A stretch of DNA of 64,000 bases from IMG/VR virus record IMGVR_UViG_3300025033_000013; one strand, written 5' to 3'. This DNA is from an uncultured virus (IMG/VR IMGVR_UViG_3300025033_000013) (taxonomy: Duplodnaviria > Heunggongvirae > Uroviricota > Caudoviricetes). A program made the translations under genes and the position numbers. Shown here in pieces: positions 46,450-62,652 of the stretch (position 1 is the first letter of the stretch; each line of letters opens with the position of its first letter). The notes beneath the pieces are model-generated. The model was not told the origin of the DNA, did no database searches, and saw only the letters and a program-made list of their open reading frames with translations.

Positions 46450-46798
46450 TATGAATTGGACATTTAAGAGTAAATTGGAAGATAATGAAGAAGCTAAAGA
46501 AACAATTGAAATTGTTAATAAGTTATTAGATAGAACTGATGTTGAAAGAATGATTTCACCTAAATCAGATGAATACTTTCTAATAGATAGGGTAAATGAA
46601 TACTGTATGGTTATTGGCCATGATAAAATAATATTGGCTAACCATAAATTTAGTACTACTGTGGAATTAGGTTTATCATTTACGGAAAAGGTTAAAAGTA
46701 TCGTAAGAGATAGACTTGAAGATGAACGACAAGCCTTAAAAGAAACCTTATTTGAGAATAAGATTGATTTACTTAAACGAATTAAAGATTCAATTTAA
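46450..46798 (+). CDS. hypothetical protein (rare plus-strand gene)
   Basis: Likely start at MNWTFK, with TATCTTTG promoter element at ~46418. Confidence 0.7.
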
Positions 46799-46812
46799 AT
46801 GTTGTATTTTTG

Positions 46813-46886
46813 TGCGGAATGTCGGATTCGAACCGACAGCTCAACCTTGGAAGGGTCACATGTTAGCCATTGGACACCAATCCCGC
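46813..46886 (-). tRNA. tRNA-Gly(TCC)
   Basis: Cloverleaf with anticodon loop CT-TCC-AA and T-loop TTCGAAT. Confidence 0.9.
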
Positions 46887-46989
46887 AAGTCGGTGTCTCA
46901 ACTACCTTTCACACCTAGCAGTTCACTAAGGAGTGTTGAGTCAGCTCTCAACAATATATTACTTATACAGTTGCTGGGGTTGTTTTACC

Positions 46990-47865
46990 TCATATTTCTT
47001 TCAACCAATTACCCTTATGAAGCAATTGGAATTTTAATTTACGTAAAGACTTATCTCTAATCAAAGCAATTCTTGCTTTGCTAAGTTCTAACATATTTGA
47101 TACTTCTTTGATACTTACTGGTTCTCTACCATCTAAGCCATATAATAATATTAATATGGTTTTCTCTTCATCATTTAACCTACTAAGTAATACTTCAGTT
47201 CTAATGTCAGAATCACCTAACTTAACTAAGTCATTTGAATCGAAATCATTTGAATCTTTTAACAAATCTAATAACGTTATAGAATCATCATCTTCTCCTA
47301 AAGGTGCGTCTAATGATTGTACCTTATTACTTAAATTATCAATAAAAAACTCTATTTCAGAATCACTAAACTCATTACCTAAATGGTCTACCAATTCATT
47401 GTAAGCTGGAGTTCTTTCTAACTTTTGCTCCAACAAGGTATATTCTTTTTTCATTTTAAATGATTTAATATATTTACCAAGTGGTGGTCTAACAATTTTA
47501 CTGTTTGCTTGTATGTGTGCTATTATTGTTTGTCTAATCCACCATACAGCATATGATATAAATTTAAAACCTCTTGATGGGTCAAACTTTTCTGACGCTT
47601 TAAGCAACCCTATATTACCCTCATTGATTAAATCTTCAAATTTAATCCCATATATTTGATATTGTTTTGCAACACTTATTACAAATCTTAGGTTATGTTT
47701 TACTAATAATTCTTTAGATTTTTCATCACCATCAAACGCTTTTACCGCAATTTCATACTCTTCTTCAGGTGTTAAAATCTTAATTGATTGAATGTCATTG
47801 AAGTACATTTGTAATGAAGGTGAACTTCTATCTGTTATCGATGGTGTTACCACTAATTCTCTCAT
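46990..47865 (-). CDS. RNA polymerase sigma-70 family factor (second paralogue)
   Basis: NLRFVISVAKQY and FDPSRGFKFISYAVWWIRQ motifs. Confidence 0.95.
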   Translation of the reverse strand: MRELVVTPSITDRSSPSLQMYFNDIQSIKILTPEEEYEIAVKAFDGDEKSKELLVKHNLRFVISVAKQYQIYGIKFEDLINEGNIGLLKASEKFDPSRGFKFISYAVWWIRQTIIAHIQANSKIVRPPLGKYIKSFKMKKEYTLLEQKLERTPAYNELVDHLGNEFSDSEIEFFIDNLSNKVQSLDAPLGEDDDSITLLDLLKDSNDFDSNDLVKLGDSDIRTEVLLSRLNDEEKTILILLYGLDGREPVSIKEVSNMLELSKARIALIRDKSLRKLKFQLLHKGNWLKEI

Positions 47866-47988
47866 ATCTTATTTTTAATTTACTACAAAGATACGAAATA
47901 TTAATGTAATAACCAAATCATACCTTATAATTTAACAACTTTGGTCACAATATCTTGTACCACAAGTTTCACAATCCAAATGGCTCGG

Positions 47989-48061
47989 AGCACCCACTCG
48001 TACACGATACGAGACCCTTGAAATACCAATCCAAAATTCTAACCACTTAAACTATGGGTGC
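47989..48061 (-). tRNA. tRNA-Thr(GGT)-like, non-canonical T-loop
   Basis: Perfect acceptor GCACCCA/TGGGTGC, anticodon loop TT-GGT-AT, T-loop ATCGTGT. Confidence 0.6.
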
Positions 48062-48170
48062 ATTCGGTAATTAACGGTAACGTTTTGTGATTTTCTATAA
48101 AATCAATCCATTGTAAACCAATTAATTACACTTTTTATACCACCTTAACGGTAACATCTGGTAATTTTTG

Positions 48171-48257
48171 TGACCCCGACAGGATTCGAACCTGTGACAT
48201 TTCCGTTAAAAGCGGAAAGCTCTAAGGATTTCTCCAAACCAACTGAGCTACGGGGCC
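48171..48257 (-). tRNA. tRNA-Lys(TTT) with enlarged D-loop
   Basis: CT-TTT-AA; the D-loop contains extra GGAGAAATCC. Confidence 0.85.
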
Positions 48258-48370
48258 ATTAACCTATTTTTTAAAGATGTTAGGTTAAAACATCTCCCTC
48301 TTTATCTTTATTTCATTTTGCGACCTAATCTTTTATATATAATATATCAAAAAGTACAAAAGTTCCAAAG

Positions 48371-48444
48371 TTACTCCACTAGGGCTCGAACCTAGACTCT
48401 TCTGGCTCAAAACCAGACGTGTTAACCAATTACACCATGGGGCA
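48371..48444 (-). tRNA. tRNA-Gln(TTG)
   Basis: TCTGG-TT-TTG-AG-CCAGA. Confidence 0.9.
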
Positions 48445-48594
48445 ATATTTACTAATATTCCATATCGTAATATGCGATATGTCACAATTCATAATGTATC
48501 TGACTTAAGGTAATTAATCTTATCACCAGATTGTAGCCTGACCTCTCCACGAAGCTGAAGCTAGACATCAATAATTGCTTTCTACATGTATAGT

Positions 48595-48673
48595 TGGGAA
48601 GGAGGGATTCGAACCCCCGAAGCCTAAGCACCTGATTTACAGTCAGGCCGTTTTGACCGCTTACCTACTTCCC
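48595..48673 (-). tRNA. tRNA-Tyr(GTA)
   Basis: CCTGA-CT-GTA-AA-TCAGG with long variable arm. Confidence 0.85.
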
Positions 48674-48818
48674 AATTTTAAAGAGGACGACACCAAAACC
48701 GCTAAGTTCAGGTTTGTTATAAACATACCCAATATGCCCTGTCATCTTACTTGTCACTTTAACTATACTCGCTATAACTGGCTCGATAGTCTACTCACCA
48801 AATAATATCCTCTTTTTG

Positions 48819-48897
48819 TGGGGCACCATGTCGGAATCGAACCGACCAGCCTTCTGGGTTACAAATCCAGTACCTTCTCCTATTCAGTCTATGGTGC
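48819..48897 (-). tRNA. tRNA-Thr(TGT)
   Basis: TT-TGT-AA loop; encoded CCA. Confidence 0.85.
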
Positions 48898-48987
48898 ATA
48901 TCATCCAGTGTTAAGTGCTTTATATGTTGGTATGCGATATAGGCAAATGATAATTTTGGTTCAGTTCAGACTATCAACTGAACTTTG

Positions 48988-49060
48988 TGACCCCCACGGG
49001 CTTCGAACCCGTAACCCTCTCCTTAAAAGGGAGATGCCCGTCCACTTGAGCTTCGAGGTC
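48988..49060 (-). tRNA. tRNA-Lys(TTT)
   Basis: TCTCC-CT-TTT-AA-GGAGA. Confidence 0.9.
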
Positions 49061-49236
49061 ATTATAAGAGACAAGACATTGTTAACCATGCTACCACGTA
49101 TTTCTTAGGTTCACTATTCTCTTATTTCATTTTACGACCTAATCTAAATCCTTCTGGAATCTAGACGATGCCCCAATAAATCTAATTTTATGCTAGGATA
49201 CGTTTCTCCTTCTATGAATTAGTAACAGTCTGGTCG

Positions 49237-49319
49237 TCGGGAAAGTCGGAATCGAACCGACCATACTGAAGCTTCCAAGGCCCCGTAGCCTTTTTTCATT
49301 CTACCTTGGTCATTTCCCG
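49237..49319 (-). tRNA. tRNA-Pro(TGG), atypical D-arm
   Basis: Acceptor CGGGAAA/TTTCCCG; CT-TGG-AA loop. Confidence 0.7.
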
Positions 49320-49388
49320 TTTTTTAATATATTCTTTTAATTTATACATAAGTAAAGATTTTGAACCAAAATCCAAAAAATTTTCATG

Positions 49389-49475
49389 TCTAAGGGGTGG
49401 GATTCGAACCCACGATGTTATTTCTAACTCTTGCACCCAAGGCAAGCGAGTCTAGCCATCTGCTCTAACCCCTAG
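49389..49475 (-). tRNA. tRNA-Pro(TGG) with long variable arm
   Basis: CTTGC-CT-TGG-GT-GCAAG; variable arm AGTTAGAAATAACATC. Confidence 0.8.
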
Positions 49476-49533
49476 ATAAAAATACAATATTTCAAAGAAC
49501 TCCAATTTTATAGATTTGGAAACTATTAAACGC

Positions 49534-49572
49534 AAAAAACCCAGTTGAAATTGTTTTATCAACTGGGTTTTT
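49534..49572 (-). terminator. intrinsic terminator (attenuator) upstream of tRNA operon 1
   Basis: AAAAACCCAGTTGA-loop-TCAACTGGG followed by TTTTTT on the minus strand. Confidence 0.85.
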
Positions 49573-49601
49573 ATATATTGTTTATATAACTATATTCTAC
49601 A

Positions 49602-49700
49602 TTAGAATTCTGTTATGTCACTACAACGTATACTCAGTTGACCTTGGGACTTCCCGCCCTTCGGTTGATACTGTTTCGTATATGTTGTATAATTTCTCAT
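49602..49700 (-). CDS. putative attenuator leader peptide MRNYTTYTKQYQPKGGKSQGQLSIRCSDITEF
   Basis: 32-aa ORF between promoter and terminator; it contains the anti-terminator segment TCAACTGAGT. Confidence 0.75.
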   Translation of the reverse strand: MRNYTTYTKQYQPKGGKSQGQLSIRCSDITEF

Positions 49701-49726
49701 TATTTCTTATTTTGGGATTTACCCTT

Positions 49727-49805
49727 GTTATTAATATATAGTGCAAATATAGTAAATGTTTTAATATAAAACAAGTTTTTTTGCAATTATTTTTAAATTA
49801 TTTTT
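49727..49805 (-). promoter_or_regulatory. Bacteroidota-type promoter block, duplicated at 62575-62652
   Basis: TATATTTG (-7) at 49744-49751, inside a ~75-nt block near-identical to the one before tRNA operon 2. Confidence 0.8.
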
Positions 49806-50043
49806 TAACTACTTGATTATCAGTCTTATATTTTTTTTATATAATTCATCAATTTCTAAATTTTCACTGATACGATATACTTCAGTATATAATAATTCAA
49901 CATTATATTTAGTTTTCGCCTTATAAGTTACTTGAACGACAATATCATTTTTATCAAAAGCATCCATTAAAGCTAACTCAGTTGGAATGTATGATAATTC
50001 ATTCTCACATTTATATTTAGTTCTAATCATCACTCTAGGGACT

Positions 50044-50160
50044 GTGAACTACCCATCCACACTTCGTGATGGATGGGCTTCAAGTTTCATTGACTTGCCC
50101 AACGACAACGCCTCCACTTGTTTTTGTTTATTGTCCGAAATGCGTCCCACATTCAGACAT
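50044..50160 (-). mobile_element. IS200/IS605 right-end remnant
   Basis: GTGAACTACCCATCCAC..GATGGATGGGCTTCAAGTTTCATTGAC, similar to the copy at 52543. Confidence 0.75.
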
Positions 50161-50277
50161 GAAAATTCTTTTCATTTGCTTTCCATGATTTTATGGAAGT
50201 GGCAACATTCACAATTGCATTTTCAGCTTGGTTACAGATACCAACTCAATGCTGGTCTGGCTACACTCCCCATTTAG

Positions 50278-50367
50278 TGGTACAAGATGGACTCAAACCA
50301 CCAACCTTGCCTACTTCAACCGTTTATCGGATGTTTCAACACGCTCTATCAATTGAGCTACTGCGCC
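50278..50367 (-). ncRNA. tRNA-like RNA with extended anticodon arm
   Basis: Acceptor, D and T arms are recognisable; ~34 nt replaces the 17-nt anticodon arm. Confidence 0.6.
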
Positions 50368-50431
50368 TTTCAAAATGAATATGTGTGGTAGGCAACTCAT
50401 ATCGTCATGTATTCACATATTCATTTTATAG

Positions 50432-50503
50432 TCGGAATGGTAGATTTGATACTACATTACCTTCCAGCAATAGGAAGTGTCTTCAAATTAGACGATATCT
50501 CCG
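50432..50503 (-). ncRNA. degenerate tRNA-like element
   Basis: GTCT/AGAC D-stem, CTTCC-TATTGCT-GGAAG arm, non-canonical T-loop. Confidence 0.45.
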
Positions 50504-50504
50504 T

Positions 50505-51330
50505 TAAAGGCTTGAGTGTTGGGCCCTTGTAATACCTTTTGCTTTCGGTTTCCCTATTTCACACACCTCATGTTTCCACTTGGTAGGCATCATTAAGACA
50601 GTCTTGGAGTGACTGCAAACTCTTTTACCACAGATTGATATAAACCAATTTCACTACCTAGCTCCCTTGCGAGGATGAGAAGGTGCGACCCTCCTACTAA
50701 CGATACCTAGTCTCCGTTTCAGCGTTACCCTTGTGAGGTTAATAACTGCCCACATATTTCAGTGGGATAACTTAATTTTGTATCCGTGACCGCTAGAACT
50801 TTTACTTATCTTTGCTTTTTTAACATAAAAGTGGTTGGGCTATCGCCCCACCTAATTGATTAGCGATGCTCTCTCTTACAGGATGTGTCTAGCAGTTGAC
50901 AAACGTGCTGGCTTTTGACCAGTTTAGTTTACGACACCCCGTTGCAGTGTTTTACCACCACATCATTTCTTCATTACTTAGATTTACAAATTAACTTAAC
51001 TTAATATAACGCTTGGTTTCCCAAGATTATAATGAAGCATCATTATTAAACATTCCATAACAAATCATGATGAAATCAGCCTATCCGCTTTTTACACGTT
51101 TCAACCGAAATCTACTAACCGCCTATTGATATTTCTATCTCAACTCCCCGAAGCTAGGGAGTGAACTCGTTAATCTCAGCCATTCAGCCATTGACCCTTG
51201 TTCGTAGTTAATATGCTTACACAGATTGTTGACCCGAAAGCCCTCAACGCAATGCCTTGTTTGGACATCACTTTATACCTATCACTAGGTTTATCTTTTC
51301 CCGAAGGAAGGAGCATAAGCACCCCATTAT
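50505..51330 (-). ncRNA. large (~820 nt) structured ncRNA, GOLLD/ROOL-like candidate
   Basis: ORF-free and GC-richer than its flanks, with many hairpins (e.g. CTTCGG loops), its own TATATTTG promoter (51367-51374), and tRNA-like genes next to it. The family assignment is not verified. Confidence 0.6.
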
Positions 51331-51817
51331 TTTCAATATTTTAATGAACGTATTTTAATTCTTGTGCAAATATACAACTTATTTTTTAATTAAACAAGTT
51401 TTTTGCGATTTTTTTTAAAAAAGTTTTAAGAGCCTCACTTAAAGTTGTTTTATAATGATTTCGCCTCATTATAACTTTCCTATTTTTACTCTGCAAATGT
51501 ACATAATATATATTTAAAAAACAAGTAAAATAACAAAAAATTTTAAACTTTTTTTAACTACTTGATTTTCAGCATTTAAAAAATAAAAAGGGCTTGAAGT
51601 TTCTCTCTTCGGCTGGTGAACCAGGTGATTTGGATAGCCCCTTTTAAAAATGATTGGTATCTATATTCGTTTAACATGATAGCTAAATCCCTATCTAGAT
51701 ACCAATTCATACGTTTGGTATCTACATGTGCAAGAAATTTATTTTCCATGGAAAACATTTTATGGTTCCCATATGGAAGTTTTTTAGAATTGTCATAGTT
51801 GTCATAATATTATTATT

Positions 51818-52396
51818 TTAAAGATTAATATACGCTTTTAAACCACCATAAACATTGAGTCTCCATTCCCAAGGTCTGTAAGAACCAGAGGGGTCATCAT
51901 ATTTGGCGGCCAAATCCCCTCGTTGCATTAATGTTGTTTTTAAATTAAGACTTAACCACTTGGTTAAGAATATAGCAAAATCATCAGTGATTTCAAGACT
52001 TATATAACTTAAGTTATCTTCAGGGAAATTTCTTATAATAACCCCAGCACCACCATAAATTGCGTTATCAAAATAACCTAAATTAAAAGGCAATTTATTA
52101 TTTCTAAAATTGTAACCCCCTTGAAGGCCATAACGAGTGAAATTGAATTCATATAAATCAGCATACTCAAAAGTCAAACCAATTACAAGACTACCAGTTC
52201 CATCATAATCACCTTCCATCATAAATTCAAATCTCACATCTGGAGTAAAAGGTTCATTACCATAATCATCTATAGTCATTGCTAACTTAATATCTTGATA
52301 AAGACTAAAAGATAGCCTAGGGTCTTCTCCAGCAACTTGCGCTGAAGATATACTAAATGTTAATAAAACGATTATATATAGTAATACTTTTTTCAT
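51818..52396 (-). CDS. signal-peptide protein, possible outer-membrane beta-barrel
   Basis: MKKVLL..SSAQ signal peptide, alternating beta-strand pattern, C-terminal YGGLKAYINL. Confidence 0.55.
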   Translation of the reverse strand: MKKVLLYIIVLLTFSISSAQVAGEDPRLSFSLYQDIKLAMTIDDYGNEPFTPDVRFEFMMEGDYDGTGSLVIGLTFEYADLYEFNFTRYGLQGGYNFRNNKLPFNLGYFDNAIYGGAGVIIRNFPEDNLSYISLEITDDFAIFLTKWLSLNLKTTLMQRGDLAAKYDDPSGSYRPWEWRLNVYGGLKAYINL

Positions 52397-52542
52397 AATG
52401 ATTGGTTTTAATTGTGTAATTATACATAATTAAAACAAAAAAAACAAATTTATTTATAAAAATTCAATAGCTAATGTTAGGGTTGGCGTCCAATCACCGC
52501 TATAATCATCATCTACATCATAATAATGTGTGTAACCTACAT

Positions 52543-52755
52543 GTGAACTACCCACCCACGCCAGAGCCGATGGGTTGGGCTTCAAGTTTCATTGACTCGA
52601 CCAATGTCAACGCCTCCACTTGTTTTTGTTTATACTCCGATTGCATCCCAAAACCAGAGTTAATACAAATATACGACTTTATTTTTAAAAGTCAAATCTT
52701 TTTGTTGCTTACAACCCATTCACGCTAAAGCGATGAATGGGTTTTACGCTCCTTT
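52543..52755 (-). mobile_element. IS200/IS605-derived MITE
   Basis: Same ends and length as the copies at 24768 and 44088. Confidence 0.9.
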
Positions 52756-59620: not shown

Positions 59621-59693
59621 TGGACACGCTGGGATTCGAACCCAATCTTCCTCATTGCAAATGAAGAGCATTTGCCATTTATGCTAACGGCCC
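59621..59693 (-). tRNA. tRNA-Ala(TGC)
   Basis: CTTCA-TT-TGC-AA-TGAGG; G3:U70 pair; slightly irregular acceptor stem. Confidence 0.8.
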
Positions 59694-60320
59694 ATATTTA
59701 TTATCCCATTTATTAACTTTTTTTATTAAATCTTCTAGATTAATACTACTTTTACCATCTTTTTTATTATTTTCACCATGCCTCATTAATTTACAATTGG
59801 CTGGGTGACTAATATAATACGGGTCAACACCATTTTTAAATCCTTCACTAATTGAGTACATATGGTCTCTACTTATCCCATTTGGATTGTCACCCATATT
59901 TTTAGCTTTATACCAGCCATACTCTTCAATCAACCAAAAATCAAATTTATCTGGGTATGAATTAAGACTAAATTTAAATTTACAAGCTTTACGGTATTCA
60001 ATTTTATCACTCCTATCAAATGAATCTAACCATAGTTCCCTTTTAAGCTTTTTAGTTTTTAAGGCCTTGTTAATAACATCTTTAGTATGTAATTTACTCC
60101 AATTAATGTTACCAACTTTTGCTTGGGCTTTTGCTGATATTGAGAGATTCTTTCTTCTTTCAGGGTCACGATTGGCCAATAAAACTTTTTCAGATTTTTT
60201 AGCGATTTCAGATTTTTTACTTTTATCTTCTTTGGACCAAGTTCTACTATTAGCACAAGACCTAGAACAAAACTTACCCTTTTTATGGTGGTTATTACCA
60301 CACTTTGGACATTCTTTCAT
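59679..60320 (-). CDS. HNH-type homing endonuclease
   Basis: Likely start at MKECPKC; KFCSRSCAN zinc motif; RDHMYS...HPANC....H.ENNKK. Confidence 0.75.
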   Translation of the reverse strand: MKECPKCGNNHHKKGKFCSRSCANSRTWSKEDKSKKSEIAKKSEKVLLANRDPERRKNLSISAKAQAKVGNINWSKLHTKDVINKALKTKKLKRELWLDSFDRSDKIEYRKACKFKFSLNSYPDKFDFWLIEEYGWYKAKNMGDNPNGISRDHMYSISEGFKNGVDPYYISHPANCKLMRHGENNKKDGKSSINLEDLIKKVNKWDNKYGPLA

Positions 60321-60367
60321 ATTAATAAATATCACAAAATAATCGAAACGACCACATAAGTTTAGGT

Positions 60368-60403
60368 AAATGTCCAACGCCTTGCCTTGGTACATGTGCC
60401 CCC
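60368..60403 (-). pseudogene. 5' half of split tRNA (Ala-type acceptor)
   Basis: GGGGGCA...GGACA-TTT; acceptor pairs with TGTCTCC and anticodon stem GGACA pairs with TGTCC. Confidence 0.75.
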
Positions 60404-60410
60404 CATATTG

Positions 60411-60484
60411 CGGTTTTCGGAGGGCTCGAACCTCCATCTCTGTACTGACACGCACAGTATCTTTTGCCATTTAGACGATAAACC
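60411..60484 (-). tRNA. tRNA-Asp(GTC)-like with 8-nt anticodon loop
   Basis: CTGTG-CGTGTCAG-TACAG; discriminator G. Confidence 0.6.
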
Positions 60485-60496
60485 ATATTAATTTTT

Positions 60497-60562
60497 TGGA
60501 AACAATGGGACTCGAACCCATATCTTACCAATAGCTATCCTAACCAGTTAGACGATACCCCC
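60497..60562 (-). ncRNA. tRNA-like element with truncated anticodon arm (G3:U70 acceptor)
   Basis: D and T arms intact; anticodon arm reduced to about GCTATTGGT. Confidence 0.55.
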
Positions 60563-60594
60563 AAGGAAATTAATAACCTTAGTTTGCAAACTTG

Positions 60595-60666
60595 TAGCCC
60601 ATGAGAGAGTCGAACTCTCGTTTACAGGTCGAAAACCTGTCGTCCTAACCATTAGACGAATGGGCC
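60595..60666 (-). tRNA. tRNA-Glu(TTC)
   Basis: ACAGG-TT-TTC-GA-CCTGT. Confidence 0.9.
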
Positions 60667-60758
60667 ATATTTGGGTAGAATCAATGTGCACATTGTCTAC
60701 CGAGACTAGTTTCATTACCTAAGACTTCATAGATAAGAGGATTAACTATCACAATTTG

Positions 60759-60800
60759 TGGTCGGAGTTGGAATCGAACCAACGACACATGGTTCTTCAA
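60759..60800 (-). pseudogene. 3' half of split tRNA-Phe(GAA)
   Basis: TT-GAA-GA-ACCAT-GTGTC-GTTGG-TTCGATT-CCAAC-TCCGACC-A; 5' remnant GGTCGGGTAGAGCA at 61460-61473. Confidence 0.75.
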
Positions 60801-60816
60801 TAACTTTTTGGTATAG

Positions 60817-60889
60817 TGGCTTGAACTGGAATCGAACCAGTGACATATGGATTTTCAGTCCACTACTCTACCAACTGAGTTACCAAGCC
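60817..60889 (-). tRNA. tRNA-Phe(GAA)
   Basis: Canonical cloverleaf, CT-GAA-AA. Confidence 0.92.
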
Positions 60890-61381
60890 TTATAGAAAGG
60901 TTTTACCTTTATACTCTAAATTTATTTTTTCTAAAATCCCATAAGTGCTATGTTCTAATCTGTGACACAGTGCACATAATAATTCACACTTATCCAATTC
61001 TTCTTTACCCCTTTCCCAAGATTTATTAGCCAAGTTTAAACCACTTGGATTAAAATCTTTTTGATTTGGGTCTTTATGATGAAAATCAAATCCTGATACA
61101 TCACCCTCCCAACCACATCTTTTACATTCACCACCTAGATATTCAACAGCTAATTTCTTGACTCTATATCTCCTTAGATTAGTGTTACACGTACCACATA
61201 ACTTCTTTTTAGATGTCTTACCACACACTAGACAATTATTAGGTTTATTTTTATGTAATGTTATATTAAACTTATCTAAAGTTCTATAAACTGTTTTCCT
61301 ACCTATTTTTAATTCTTTTGATATAACTGTGGCTGTTTCACCAGCGTTATACATTTCTATAATCTTTTCGTCTCTACTCAT
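60890..61381 (-). CDS. HNH-type homing endonuclease with N-terminal HTH
   Basis: Likely start at MSRDEK; YLGGECKRCG, FDFHHKDP and CELLCALCHRLEH motifs. Confidence 0.85.
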   Translation of the reverse strand: MSRDEKIIEMYNAGETATVISKELKIGRKTVYRTLDKFNITLHKNKPNNCLVCGKTSKKKLCGTCNTNLRRYRVKKLAVEYLGGECKRCGWEGDVSGFDFHHKDPNQKDFNPSGLNLANKSWERGKEELDKCELLCALCHRLEHSTYGILEKINLEYKGKTFL

Positions 61382-61484
61382 ATTAATAAATATGAAGTTT
61401 TTATTAAAAGACACATTTTTTAAAAAATAAATTCTACCAAAATGTCAAATAACTTATTATGCTCTACCCGACCATTATTATTTG

Positions 61485-61558
61485 TACTGCCGACCAGATT
61501 CGAACTGGCGTCTGCAAGGTTGAAAGCCTTGTGTACTTGACCGCTATACTACGGCAGC
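61485..61558 (-). tRNA. tRNA-Glu(TTC)
   Basis: CAAGG-CT-TTC-AA-CCTTG. Confidence 0.9.
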
Positions 61559-61565
61559 AAATTTG

Positions 61566-61636
61566 TGGGAACTAAGAGAGTCGAACTCTTACCTTATGGG
61601 CTTCAACCATACGAACTACCATTATTCGAAGTCCCC
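61566..61636 (-). tRNA. tRNA-Phe(GAA)
   Basis: TATGG-TT-GAA-GC-CCATA; acceptor GGGGACT/AGTTCCC. Confidence 0.8.
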
Positions 61637-61697
61637 TTATGAACCATTTAAAAACCTCCCCGACAAGGGTTAAAACAATGATTCTTTGTTTTATTTT

Positions 61698-61787
61698 TGG
61701 CAACTACAACGGGAGTCGAACCCGCTACATGGATAAACCAAACCTGAGTGACAGTCAGGTACACCAACCGTTATGCGCTGGTACTGT
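61698..61787 (-). tRNA. tRNA-Asp(GTC) with long variable arm, weak acceptor stem
   Basis: CCTGA-CT-GTC-AC-TCAGG; encoded G-CCA. Confidence 0.6.
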
Positions 61788-62300
61788 TTGAGGGTTACAT
61801 TAACCCTCTTAATTGTTCTTTCAACTCCTGAATCTTTCTTTGTTGAAGTGGTACATTAATTTCCACAGTATTAGAGGTTTTTTTAGTTAAAGATAAAGTT
61901 AATTCATCTTCTAACATTTTGATTCTCTCAATTAATCTATTTCTCTTTTTATCAATCTTACCCATAACCATTTTCTTTTTTCCATTGGTTATGCAACCAA
62001 TTTACGTGTTCATACGCTGAACCTTTACCTTCATGAATATCATTGAATCCATTCTCTTTAGTGATTACAGATTCTTTAGGTGTTACTGAACCTCTATATT
62101 TAGTTCCATAATTACCAGTGAATTTTTTAGTTACTGGGTCGAAATCTCCCCATTTACTATAACCATCACCTATCCATTCAATATAATACTTTTTTCCTGT
62201 TTCTGGATAGAACATTATCTCTCTTCCAGTTTCATCTCGATTAAGTAGGAAATTCTTAATCACTTCTTTATTTATCCCATGATAATCAAATTTAATTTTG

Positions 62301-62373
62301 CGGATGTCACGGGGGTCGAACCCGCAATCGCTTGAGTGACAGTCAAGCATGTTACCTACAACACCTCACATCC
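62301..62373 (-). tRNA. tRNA-Asp(GTC)
   Basis: CTTGA-CT-GTC-AC-TCAAG. Confidence 0.9.
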
Positions 62374-62382
62374 GTTTATAAC

Positions 62383-62416
62383 AAAAAAAAATCTCATCCG
62401 ATTTGGATGAGATTTT
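62383..62416 (-). terminator. intrinsic terminator (attenuator) upstream of tRNA operon 2
   Basis: AAAATCTCATCC-aaatc-GGATGAGA followed by a T9 tract on the minus strand. Confidence 0.85.
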
Positions 62417-62447: not shown

Positions 62448-62543
62448 TTAACTTTCATTTTTGACAATTCTCATCCTACCCAAGCTAAAATCTGCCTCGG
62501 CTGCGAAAAATTCGTTTTCAAATATGTTAATTAAGTTTCTCAT
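62448..62543 (-). CDS. putative attenuator leader peptide MRNLINIFENEFFAAEADFSLGRMRIVKNES
   Basis: 31-aa ORF between promoter and terminator; it contains the anti-terminator segment GGATGAGA. Confidence 0.75.
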   Translation of the reverse strand: MRNLINIFENEFFAAEADFSLGRMRIVKNES

Positions 62544-62574: not shown

Positions 62575-62652
62575 GTTATTAATATATAGTGCAAATATAG
62601 TAAATGTTTCAATATAAAACAAATTTTTTTGCAATTATTTTTAAATTATTTT
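62575..62652 (-). promoter_or_regulatory. Bacteroidota-type promoter block (copy of 49727-49805)
   Basis: TATATTTG at 62592-62599. Confidence 0.8.

What the first reader, a model, noticed from the sequence alone, without database searches (positions are those of the whole stretch)
46813..49805. tRNA operon 1 is behind a leader-peptide attenuator whose codons match its tRNAs (Y/T/K/Q/P/G)
Seen on the minus strand: promoter (49744-49751), then a 32-aa ORF (49700-49602), then an intrinsic terminator (49572-49534), then tRNAs Pro, Pro, Lys, Thr, Tyr, Gln, Lys, Thr-like and Gly. Leader residues 4-21 are YTTYTKQYQPKGGKSQGQ, so 17 of 18 are exactly those six amino acids. Codons 20-23 contain TCAACTGAGT, complementary (9/10) to the terminator 5' arm ACCCAGTTGA. 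Established: ribosome-mediated attenuation of amino-acid biosynthesis operons (trp, his, thr). Inference: stalling when any of these tRNAs is depleted, for example by host anticodon nucleases or starvation, switches on the phage's replacement tRNAs. I do not know this arrangement as described for tRNA arrays.
Basis: partly seen in the sequence, partly recalled or inferred. Interest (0 to 1): 0.93.

Follow-up and report, generated by a model that had tools for sequence, protein, structure and literature searches.

The report
Leader-peptide attenuators gating phage tRNA genes
Each block of tRNA genes in this phage sits behind a tiny translated test gene, spelled mostly in the amino acids those tRNAs carry and wired to a switchable transcription stop, so the phage probably makes a tRNA set only when ribosomes read its codons slowly.

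Summary
On the minus strand lie a Bacteroidota-type promoter (49774-49744), a 32-codon ORF (49700-49602), a strong intrinsic terminator (49572-49534) and a tRNA cluster.

The phage's 93-kb record has three such units. A second is in the window (promoter 62622-62592, leader 62543-62448, terminator 62416-62380). A third lies just outside it. Each leader is enriched in the amino acids of its own downstream tRNAs:
- A: Pro/Lys/Thr/Tyr/Gln/Gly, 14 of 17 codons.
- B: Asp/Phe/Glu plus Ala/Ser, 10 of 17.
- C: Cys/Val/Leu, 11 of 17.
- Cross-matches are only 0-4 of 17.

In each leader, codons about 18-26 mimic the terminator's 3' arm and can pair with its 5' arm. That pairing is free when a ribosome sits on the enriched codons.

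Homologous A-type leaders occur in 14 other distinct metagenomic phage sequences, and 113 of 117 typed downstream tRNAs carry the same six amino acids. Unrelated Cellulophaga and Maribacter phages show the same design with other leaders and other tRNA sets.

No experiment exists, and the trigger is inferred. It could be demand feedback or host tRNA cleavage. Six literature searches found no description. This scan has noted the same design on other phage DNA.

The parts
49744..49774 (-). Promoter of unit A. Bacteroidota-type: TTG at 49774-49772, a 20-nt spacer, and the -7 box at 49751-49744.
   Evidence: About 150 nt around it is 85% identical to the unit B promoter region. The consensus itself is recalled, not tested.
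49602..49700 (-). Leader ORF A, 32 codons plus stop. Codons 2-18 hold 14 residues of Pro/Lys/Thr/Tyr/Gln/Gly.
   Evidence: Conserved as an ORF of 31-33 codons in 18 distinct homologous sequences. No Pfam or PHROG family.
49678..49688 (-). Region 1 (codons 5-8). It pairs with region 2 in the free RNA (anti-antiterminator).
   Evidence: MFE of the full leader transcript. Not tested against shuffles.
49623..49643 (-). Region 2 (codons 20-26). 49641-49632 mimics the terminator 3' arm and pairs with its 5' arm (antiterminator). 49633-49623 pairs with region 1.
   Evidence: The core of this segment is invariant in the 18 aligned homologues.
49534..49572 (-). Intrinsic terminator A. Stem 49572-49559 / 49548-49535, 10-nt loop, T tract to 49534.
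49475..49498 (-). Conserved 24-nt motif between terminator A and tRNA-Pro. Function unknown.
   Evidence: Unique in the genome. Nearly invariant in 4 related sequences.
47987..49475 (-). tRNA cluster A. Pro 49475-49388; tRNA-like element 49319-49236; Lys 49060-48987; Thr(TGT) 48897-48819; Tyr 48674-48593; Gln 48444-48370; Lys with enlarged D loop 48257-48170; Thr(GGT) 48061-47987.
   Evidence: The identity of 48257-48170 is my hand parse.
46990..47865 (-). Sigma-70-family gene with its own promoter (-7 box ending at 47886), lying inside the cluster.
46812..46886 (-). tRNA-Gly(TCC), downstream of the sigma gene.
62592..62622 (-). Promoter of unit B, a near copy of the unit A promoter.
62448..62543 (-). 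Leader ORF B, 31 codons plus stop. Codons 8-20 are 4 Phe, 3 Glu, 3 Ala, 1 Asp, 1 Asn and 1 Ser.
   Evidence: A homologue sits in an independent contig before Phe, Glu, Asp, an Asn-like tRNA and Ala.
62466..62476 (-). Antiterminator strand of unit B (codons 23-26).
   Evidence: 3 of 1000 shuffles; 1 of 300.
62380..62416 (-). Intrinsic terminator B. Stem 62416-62405 / 62399-62388 plus T tract. tRNA-Asp starts 15 nt after the stem.
59621..62373 (-). tRNA cluster B. Asp 62373-62300; Asp 61788-61698; Phe 61636-61565; Glu 61558-61484; Phe 60889-60816; Glu 60666-60594. Rfam-only tRNAs at 60562-60497 (Ser GCT at a lowered ARAGORN threshold) and 59693-59621 (Ala TGC at a lowered threshold). A tRNA-like element at 60484-60410. 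ORFs are interspersed.

Best explanation
These are ribosome-mediated (leader-peptide) transcription attenuators that gate phage tRNA genes.

A strong host-type promoter starts a transcript that first encodes a roughly 30-codon leader. The first about 18 codons are spelled mainly in the amino acids whose tRNAs lie downstream.

Proposed switch:
- If the ribosome is slowed on those codons because a cognate charged tRNA is scarce, it covers region 1 and leaves region 2 (codons about 20-26) free.
- Region 2 then pairs with the terminator's 5' arm as that arm emerges. The terminator cannot form, and RNA polymerase runs into the tRNA genes.
- If decoding is fast, the ribosome runs over region 2. After the ribosome is released, region 1 re-pairs with region 2. 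The terminator forms and the transcript ends before the tRNAs.

Because the products are the sensed molecules themselves, each unit is a closed negative-feedback loop for one subset of tRNAs.

Shown here: the anatomy, the codon/tRNA match, the alternative pairings, and their conservation and co-variation across phages.

Inferred: leader translation, stalling, regulated read-through, and what depletes the tRNAs in nature. Candidates are phage codon demand, host shut-off, or host tRNA-cleaving defence.
For: (1) Three units in one phage share the plan promoter, leader, terminator, tRNAs. Units A and B share about 150 nt at 85% identity around the promoter and first codons, yet their leaders differ.

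(2) Each leader matches its own tRNA set in codons 2-18: A 14/17, B 7/17 (Asp/Phe/Glu) or 10/17 (adding Ser and Ala tRNAs seen only by Rfam or lowered-threshold ARAGORN), C 11/17. The cross-matrix is A [14,1,0], B [0,10,1], C [4,1,11]. Ranks among 1359 open ATG stretches of the genome: A 1, B 29 (or 10), C 2. Codons 19 to the end are at background: 4/14, 4/13 and 1/9.

(3) Codon level, read by a downstream anticodon under strict wobble: A 13/17, B 9/17, C 10/17.

(4) Antiterminator. With the transcript cut before the 3' arm and a ribosome mask at A-site codons 2-16, the terminator 5' arm pairs with the leader segment. This held in units A, B, C and one Cellulophaga phage unit. A mask at about codons 18-26 abolishes the pairing. 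Complementarity against dinucleotide shuffles: A 57, B 3, C 0 of 1000; A 17, B 1, C 0 of 300. It always lies at codons 16-26.

(5) The free-RNA MFE of A, B and C pairs the enriched codons with region 2 and forms the terminator.

(6) The terminator stem ends 9-28 nt before the first tRNA in most units (63-72 nt in one subfamily, unit A included). This leaves no room for another promoter in units B and C.

(7) Family A: 15 distinct leaders with downstream tRNAs. 113 of 117 typed tRNAs are Pro/Gln/Tyr/Lys/Thr/Gly. Up to 17/17 leader codons are in the set. The C-terminal peptide part is not conserved, while the start codon, ORF length (31-33 codons) and stop-to-arm distance (25-34 nt) are.

(8) An independent contig carries all three leader types with its own promoter repeat.

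(9) Cellulophaga phages phi38:1, Calle_1 and phi4:1 and Maribacter phage Panino have other leaders matching other groupings: Pro/Glu/Gln/His/Leu/Arg; Ala/Lys/Ile/Gly/Met/Asp/Thr/Val/Arg; Tyr/Ser/Asn/Trp/Phe.

(10) In the unsupervised pipeline, spurious ORF/terminator candidates show neither enrichment nor a significant antiterminator.
Against: - No expression or translation data. The one RNA run found holds only assembled contigs covering 48642-48964 and 50004-50100, which cannot show ends.
- In equilibrium folds of the full-length leader the terminator wins even with a ribosome mask at codon 10. The switch must therefore be kinetic, which I cannot test.
- In unit A, a ribosome at codons 28-30 leaves the antiterminator strand free, and so does one at the stop codon in unit B. 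Termination then depends on the 1:2 pairing or on timing.
- The unit A complementarity is only modestly above shuffles.
- Unit B's enrichment rests partly on weakly called tRNAs. With confident calls only it is 7/17, p 0.02.
- Some leader codons are not read by the phage tRNAs under strict wobble, for example two of three Gly codons in A.
- tRNA-Gly lies behind a gene with its own promoter.
- A conserved 24-nt motif between terminator A and tRNA-Pro could be a promoter for a phage sigma factor, which would bypass the attenuator.
- Leader C resembles a lipoprotein signal peptide in composition.
- Family A members share ancestry, so their agreement is not independent evidence.
Confidence: 0.8

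Rival explanations
1. The short ORFs are ordinary small genes or chance ORFs, each with its own plain terminator. The tRNAs are made by leaky read-through or from other promoters, and the composition match is coincidence or mutational bias.
For: The ORFs are tiny and have no known family. Leader C looks like a signal peptide. Cellulophaga phage annotators called such ORFs hypothetical proteins. A conserved motif after terminator A might be a promoter.
Against: - The match to each unit's own tRNA set ranks 1, 10-29 and 2 of 1359 in the genome and is near zero for the other units' sets.
- It recurs with different amino acids in unrelated phages.
- The C-terminal peptide part is unconserved, while the codons before the antiterminator are conserved even at synonymous sites.
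- There is no room for a promoter between terminator and first tRNA in units B and C.
Confidence: 0.05
2. The leader RNA senses tRNAs directly, without translation, in a T-box-like way. Codon-like triplets pair with tRNA anticodons and this stabilises the antiterminator.
For: The enriched region is conserved at the nucleotide level, synonymous positions included. Direct tRNA sensing upstream of translation genes is established for T-box leaders (recalled).
Against: - No T-box or other Rfam family matches.
- The start codon, the open frame, a length of 31-33 codons and a constant stop-to-terminator distance are kept through indels in 18 homologues.
- Many different triplets in one frame fit a ribosome better than one specifier loop does.
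Confidence: 0.07
3. The unit is an attenuator, but it reports general translation capacity or transcription-translation coupling, for example after host shut-off. It does not report the supply of specific tRNAs.
For: Any slowing of the lead ribosome would free the antiterminator. The leaders mix five to nine amino acids, so sensitivity to any one is limited.
Against: A general sensor needs no codon bias. Yet each leader is biased to its own tRNA subset, and substitutions among homologues stay within that subset.
Confidence: 0.08

Closest known systems
Multivalent leader-peptide attenuators of enterobacterial amino-acid operons (thr leader with Thr and Ile codons; ilvGMEDA and ilvBN leaders with Ile/Leu/Val codons; also trp, his, leu, pheA). 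Named from memory.
   Same: Promoter-proximal short ORF rich in regulatory codons, an intrinsic terminator, an antiterminator that uses the terminator's 5' arm, and a 1:2 pairing over the regulatory codons. Several amino acids are sensed by one leader.
   Different: The genes controlled are tRNA genes, not biosynthetic enzymes, so the sensed molecule is the product itself. Five to nine amino acids are mixed, mostly without long runs. The host is a Bacteroidota phage. The antiterminator strand lies inside the ORF, not after its stop.
pheST attenuator (pheM leader) of E. coli, which controls an aminoacyl-tRNA synthetase. Recalled.
   Same: Leader-peptide attenuation applied to the translation apparatus, responding to charged tRNA.
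   Different: One amino acid only. The product is the charging enzyme, not the tRNA.
T-box leaders of Gram-positive aminoacyl-tRNA synthetase and amino-acid genes (Rfam RF00230).
   Same: Terminator/antiterminator switch answering to the state of a specific tRNA.
   Different: A T-box binds uncharged tRNA directly and needs no translation. No T-box match here. Here an ORF is conserved.
Earlier notes of this scan on other phage genomes, e.g. e1-2978539, e1-5943215, e1-5318471, e1-5886956, e1-5926040.
   Same: The same design is reported: a promoter, a leader spelled in the downstream tRNAs' amino acids, and a switchable terminator before tRNA arrays. None found it in print.
   Different: Other genomes, which I did not examine. 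A sequence look-up found no look-alike of this leader among them. They are AI notes, not independent evidence.

Membership tests
Ribosome-mediated (leader-peptide) transcription attenuators | Short ORF with a start codon directly after the promoter, conserved as an ORF in relatives | tested here: met
   32-codon ATG ORF, 37 nt after the presumed start site. 18 distinct homologues keep the ATG and 31-33 codons.
Ribosome-mediated (leader-peptide) transcription attenuators | Leader enriched in codons cognate to what the operon supplies | tested here: met
   A 14/17, B 7-10/17 and C 11/17 in their own sets; cross-matches 0-4/17. Genome ranks 1, 10-29 and 2 of 1359. The same holds in other phages.
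Ribosome-mediated (leader-peptide) transcription attenuators | Intrinsic terminator between the leader and the controlled genes | tested here: met
   Stems of 12-14 pairs followed by 6-9 T, ending 3-59 nt (counted from the T tract) before the first tRNA.
Ribosome-mediated (leader-peptide) transcription attenuators | Antiterminator mutually exclusive with the terminator and controlled by ribosome position | tested here: met
   Forms in transcripts cut before the 3' arm when the mask is at codons 2-16, and is lost with the mask at codons 18-26. Above shuffles in B and C and modestly in A. In full-length equilibrium folds the terminator wins.
Ribosome-mediated (leader-peptide) transcription attenuators | Anti-antiterminator (1:2) pairing that includes the regulatory codons | tested here: inconclusive
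   Present in the MFE of A (codons 5-8 with 23-26), B and C. Not tested against shuffles, and no clear compensatory changes.
Ribosome-mediated (leader-peptide) transcription attenuators | Read-through depends on translation of the leader and rises when the cognate charged tRNA is scarce | not testable with these tools
   The only RNA run found holds contigs that cannot show transcript ends.
Ribosome-mediated (leader-peptide) transcription attenuators | Controlled genes are amino-acid biosynthesis (or synthetase) genes, as in all described members I recall | tested here: not met
   The controlled genes are tRNAs. This is the respect in which it is a new variant.
T-box leader (RF00230) | Match to the family's covariance model (specifier loop, T-box sequence) | tested here: not met
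   No match at gathering score over the window, or at E up to 5 over 46500-52700.

The most novel reading that the evidence does not exclude
Phages of several lineages carry a modular, codon-barcoded sensing circuit. Each tRNA sub-operon is switched on by ribosome stalling at exactly the codons its tRNAs read, so the phage detects which host tRNAs are missing and replaces just those. Losses caused by host anticodon-nuclease defence would be included. The leaders would then record which tRNAs are contested between phage and host, and would be a ready-made set of tRNA-specific biosensors.
Probability: 0.35. Interest if true: 0.95.

Novelty: new variant of a known kind. Interest (0 to 1): 0.85.

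Why it matters
Why phages carry tRNA genes, and how they use them, is a long-standing question. Codon-usage matching, compensation for host tRNA decay and escape from tRNA-cleaving defences are all debated.

Regulation that is itself written in the codons of the regulated tRNAs would show that these tRNAs are made on demand, subset by subset. It would also make the question testable. One could deplete a single tRNA and see which unit opens.

It extends a textbook mechanism, leader-peptide attenuation, to a product class for which my six literature searches found no description. A cultured model exists for bench work: Cellulophaga baltica with phage phi38:1.

Tried and rejected
- **Close relatives in the phage collection.** A blastn of 46700-50100 found only tRNA-length matches.
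- **Generic promoter pattern in viral contigs.** 119 loci came back, almost all irrelevant. Only copies of this phage and phi38:1 had tRNAs downstream.
- **Single-protein search with the sigma factor.** It found only the same phage. An alignment was needed.
- **RNA evidence.** One metatranscriptome run held 9% of the sampled words. Laid on the stretch, its contigs cover 48642-48964 and 50004-50100 only, plus unrelated sigma-like pieces. That gives no information on starts, ends or the leader.
- **B- and C-type leader patterns in viral contigs.** Only copies of this phage turned up.
- **A-type pattern in 185,579 bacterial and archaeal genomes.** 3 hits, none with an ATG ORF or tRNAs downstream, so no bacterial counterpart was found.
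- **Rfam.** Nothing but tRNAs.
- **Pfam and PHROGs on the leaders.** Nothing at E below 0.01.
- **Covariation within family A.** The terminator and antiterminator cores are invariant, so no compensatory changes can be counted there.
- **Notes of this scan for this genome and for look-alike sequence.** Nothing.
- **Summary table typed by hand.** It was not run. The same counts come from the stored pipeline output.
- **Four-way reading by U34 in split codon boxes.** The script allowed it, which is not valid. I use the strict-wobble figures.
Full report
**Observation**

I read 46700-49950 on the minus strand.
- A Bacteroidota-type promoter has TTG at 49774-49772, a 20-nt spacer and a -7 box at 49751-49744. 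The consensus is recalled from the literature on Bacteroides and Flavobacterium promoters.
- An ATG-started 32-codon ORF lies at 49700-49602.
- An intrinsic terminator has stem 49572-49559 / 49548-49535 and six T ending at 49534.
- Residues 4-21 of the ORF are 3 Tyr, 3 Thr, 3 Lys, 4 Gln, 1 Pro, 3 Gly and 1 Ser.

tRNA calls in the cluster:
- ARAGORN finds 14 tRNAs in the window. Eight lie in 49475-46812: Pro, Lys, Thr, Tyr, Gln, 'Glu', Thr, Gly.
- Rfam finds 15 tRNA matches in the window and no other family.
- The 'Glu' call at 48257-48170 parses by hand as a regular Lys(TTT) with a 22-nt D loop.
- A sigma-70-family gene with its own promoter lies between Thr(GGT) and Gly.

**The unit is one of three**

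The window is the minus strand of bases 29028-93027 of a 93,027-base, 31% G+C virus record.

A scan for the promoter consensus gave 44 sites on the coding strand and 6 on the other. Three of these are near copies of one another. Each is followed by a short ORF, a strong terminator and a tRNA cluster.
- Unit A is the finding.
- Unit B is in the window: promoter 62622-62592, leader 62543-62448, terminator 62416-62380. Then come Asp, Asp, Phe, Glu, Phe, Glu and three weaker tRNA calls.
- Unit C lies just outside the window (genome 27443-27526 for the leader). It precedes Cys, Val, Leu, Val, Leu, Leu.
- Units A and B share about 150 nt at 85% identity around the promoter and the first codons, yet their leaders differ.

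**Leader composition follows the tRNA set**

I fixed the window of codons by the mechanism. Codons 2-18 are where a stalled ribosome leaves the antiterminator strand free.
- Leader A has 14 of 17 residues in Pro/Lys/Thr/Tyr/Gln/Gly (background 0.315, p 2e-5).
- Leader B has 7 of 17 in Asp/Phe/Glu (p 0.02). It has 10 of 17 if the Ser and Ala tRNAs seen by Rfam and lowered-threshold ARAGORN are added (p 0.008).
- Leader C has 11 of 17 in Cys/Val/Leu (background 0.155, p 6e-6).
- The cross-matrix is A [14,1,0], B [0,10,1], C [4,1,11]. Codons 19 to the end are at background.
- Among 1359 ATG-started open 18-codon stretches in the genome, the number reaching each observed count is 1 for A, 29 (or 10) for B and 2 for C, the leaders themselves included.
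- Under strict wobble, 13, 9 and 10 of the 17 codons are read by a downstream phage anticodon.

**Alternative RNA structures**

- The minimum-free-energy fold of each full leader pairs the enriched codons with a segment at codons about 20-26. In A this is codons 5-8 with 23-26. The same fold forms the terminator.
- I cut each transcript just before the terminator's 3' arm and masked 29 nt for a ribosome. With the A site at codons 2-16, the terminator's 5' arm pairs with the segment at codons about 20-26. This held in A, B, C and one Cellulophaga phage unit. With the mask at about 18-26 the pairing is lost.
- That segment copies the terminator's 3' arm. Against dinucleotide shuffles of the leader, the complementarity is reached in 57 (A), 3 (B) and 0 (C) of 1000, and in 17, 1 and 0 of 300.
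- The stop codon lies 31-32 nt before the arm in all three.
- Caveat: in full-length equilibrium folds the terminator always wins, so the choice must be kinetic, as in classical attenuators.
- In unit A a ribosome at codons 28-30 does not cover the antiterminator strand, nor does one at the stop codon in unit B.

**The tRNAs depend on read-through**

The terminator stem ends 19 nt (B) and 9 nt (C) before the first tRNA, and 9-28 nt in most units of other phages. That leaves no room for a promoter.

In unit A and its subfamily the gap is 63-72 nt. It holds a 24-nt motif that is unique in the genome and nearly invariant in four relatives. Its role is unknown, and a promoter for a phage sigma factor is not excluded.

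**Relatives**

- The sigma factor's relatives led to contigs with homologous A-type leaders before Pro/Gln/Tyr/Lys/Thr/Gly tRNAs.
- A degenerate pattern for eight leader residues found 6 viral and 40 metagenomic stretches. After removing duplicates, 19 distinct ORFs remained. Fifteen of them have tRNAs downstream within the fetched DNA. The other four, and two hits without an ATG, are chance matches or contig ends.
- Of 117 ARAGORN-typed tRNAs after those 15 leaders, 113 carry the six amino acids. The four exceptions are the miscalled Lys and three doubtful calls.
- Up to 17 of 17 codons are in the set.
- In the alignment of 18 distinct sequences, several features are kept: the start codon, the enriched codons (largely also at synonymous sites), the antiterminator core, and the terminator. 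The C-terminal part of the peptide and the spacer vary freely. This is the pattern expected of a regulatory leader and not of a functional peptide.
- One independent contig carries all three leader types behind its own repeated promoter. A Val/Leu/Cys-rich leader precedes Cys, Val, Leu. A Phe/Glu/Ala/Asp/Asn-rich leader precedes Phe, Glu, Asp, an Asn-like tRNA and Ala. An A-type leader precedes Lys, Pro, Gly, Gln, Tyr, Thr.

**Unrelated phages**

Cellulophaga phages phi38:1, Calle_1 and phi4:1 and Maribacter phage Panino were reached through tRNA similarity. They have their own repeated promoter and three leader types. These are rich in, and followed by tRNAs for:
- Pro/Glu/Gln/His/Leu/Arg
- Ala/Lys/Ile/Gly/Met/Asp/Thr/Val/Arg
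- Tyr/Ser/Asn/Trp/Phe

. The groupings differ from those of this phage, and the leaders differ with them.

An unsupervised pipeline looked for a terminator within 90 nt of a tRNA with any ATG ORF ending 3-80 nt before it. It yielded 36 ORF/terminator candidates. The true units top the enrichment list. Spurious candidates (other frames, chance hairpins) show 0-4 of 17 and no significant antiterminator.

**What it is**

By anatomy this is a classical four-region leader-peptide attenuator, multivalent like the thr and ilv leaders. The genes it gates are tRNAs. It fails only the feature that described members control biosynthetic or synthetase genes. It is not a T-box.

The most likely working:
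- Slow decoding of the enriched codons keeps the ribosome on region 1.
- Region 2 captures the terminator's 5' arm, and the polymerase reads into the tRNA genes.
- The new tRNAs speed decoding and shut the unit again.

This is a separate feedback loop for each tRNA subset.

The physiological cause of shortage is not determined.

**Prior knowledge**

- Six full-text searches gave no paper describing leader-peptide control of tRNA genes among the results listed. I saw listings and abstract starts only, so this is not proof of absence.
- The A-type pattern had 3 hits in 185,579 bacterial and archaeal genomes, none leader-like.
- The scan's notebook shows that other agents reported the same design on other phage genomes, and also found nothing in print. 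No note concerns this genome or a look-alike of this leader.

**Verdict**

It is a new variant of a known kind and of high interest.

Noticed in passing
window 51345-50420 (minus strand), after the promoter with -7 box ending at 51367: An ORF-free stretch of about 930-975 nt is conserved at 77-88% nucleotide identity in relatives whose sigma factor is only 41-47% identical. RNAalifold on 6 sequences gives 222 pairs, 52 of them with changes on both sides that keep the pair. There is no Rfam match at E up to 5. It sits just upstream of the A-type tRNA unit in all of them. This is a candidate large structured RNA of unknown kind.
   Followed up: partly
window 52666-52528 and 50157-50043; genome 256-373, 48818-48940, 68138-68260, plus four partial copies: A repeat of about 120 nt with its own promoter-like start and a conserved hairpin end. 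There are five full copies at 80-91% identity. It could be a small-RNA family or a mobile element.
   Followed up: partly
window 48257-48170, 49475-49388, 61788-61698, 49319-49236, 60484-40410 region (60484-60410): Many of the phage's tRNAs are oversized or odd. Lys has a 22-nt D loop, Pro is 88 nt, Asp is 91 nt, and two tRNA-like elements have 8-nt or otherwise irregular anticodon loops. ARAGORN and Rfam disagree on several.
   Followed up: partly
window 51496-51386 and promoters with -7 boxes ending at 51494 and 51367: A fourth copy of the promoter type is followed by a 27-codon ORF whose first codons resemble those of leaders A and B. It has no terminator, and it overlaps the next promoter. 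It may be a decayed or different unit.
   Followed up: no
window 50367-50278: A 90-nt tRNA (Rfam 34.6 bits; lowered-threshold ARAGORN calls anticodon ACA) lies upstream of unit A's promoter. So the tRNA region does not begin at the leader.
   Followed up: no
window 46990-47865 and locus L126: The phage encodes two sigma-70-family proteins that are 46% identical to each other. The one in the window is about 45% identical to primary sigma factors of Flavobacteriia.
   Followed up: partly
loci L225, L250, L236 (metagenome contigs of 314,960, 161,968 and 112,047 bases): These much longer contigs hold sequence identical to the window around the leader. The 93-kb record may therefore be a fragment of a larger phage genome, or the long contigs may be mis-joins.
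   Followed up: no
locus L010 2896-2975 (Cellulophaga phage phi38:1): An unannotated tRNA-like gene with anticodon TGC (Ala) lies directly after the first terminator. It matches the Ala residue in that leader and the Ala tRNA at the same place in Panino and phi4:1. This is my hand parse.
   Followed up: partly
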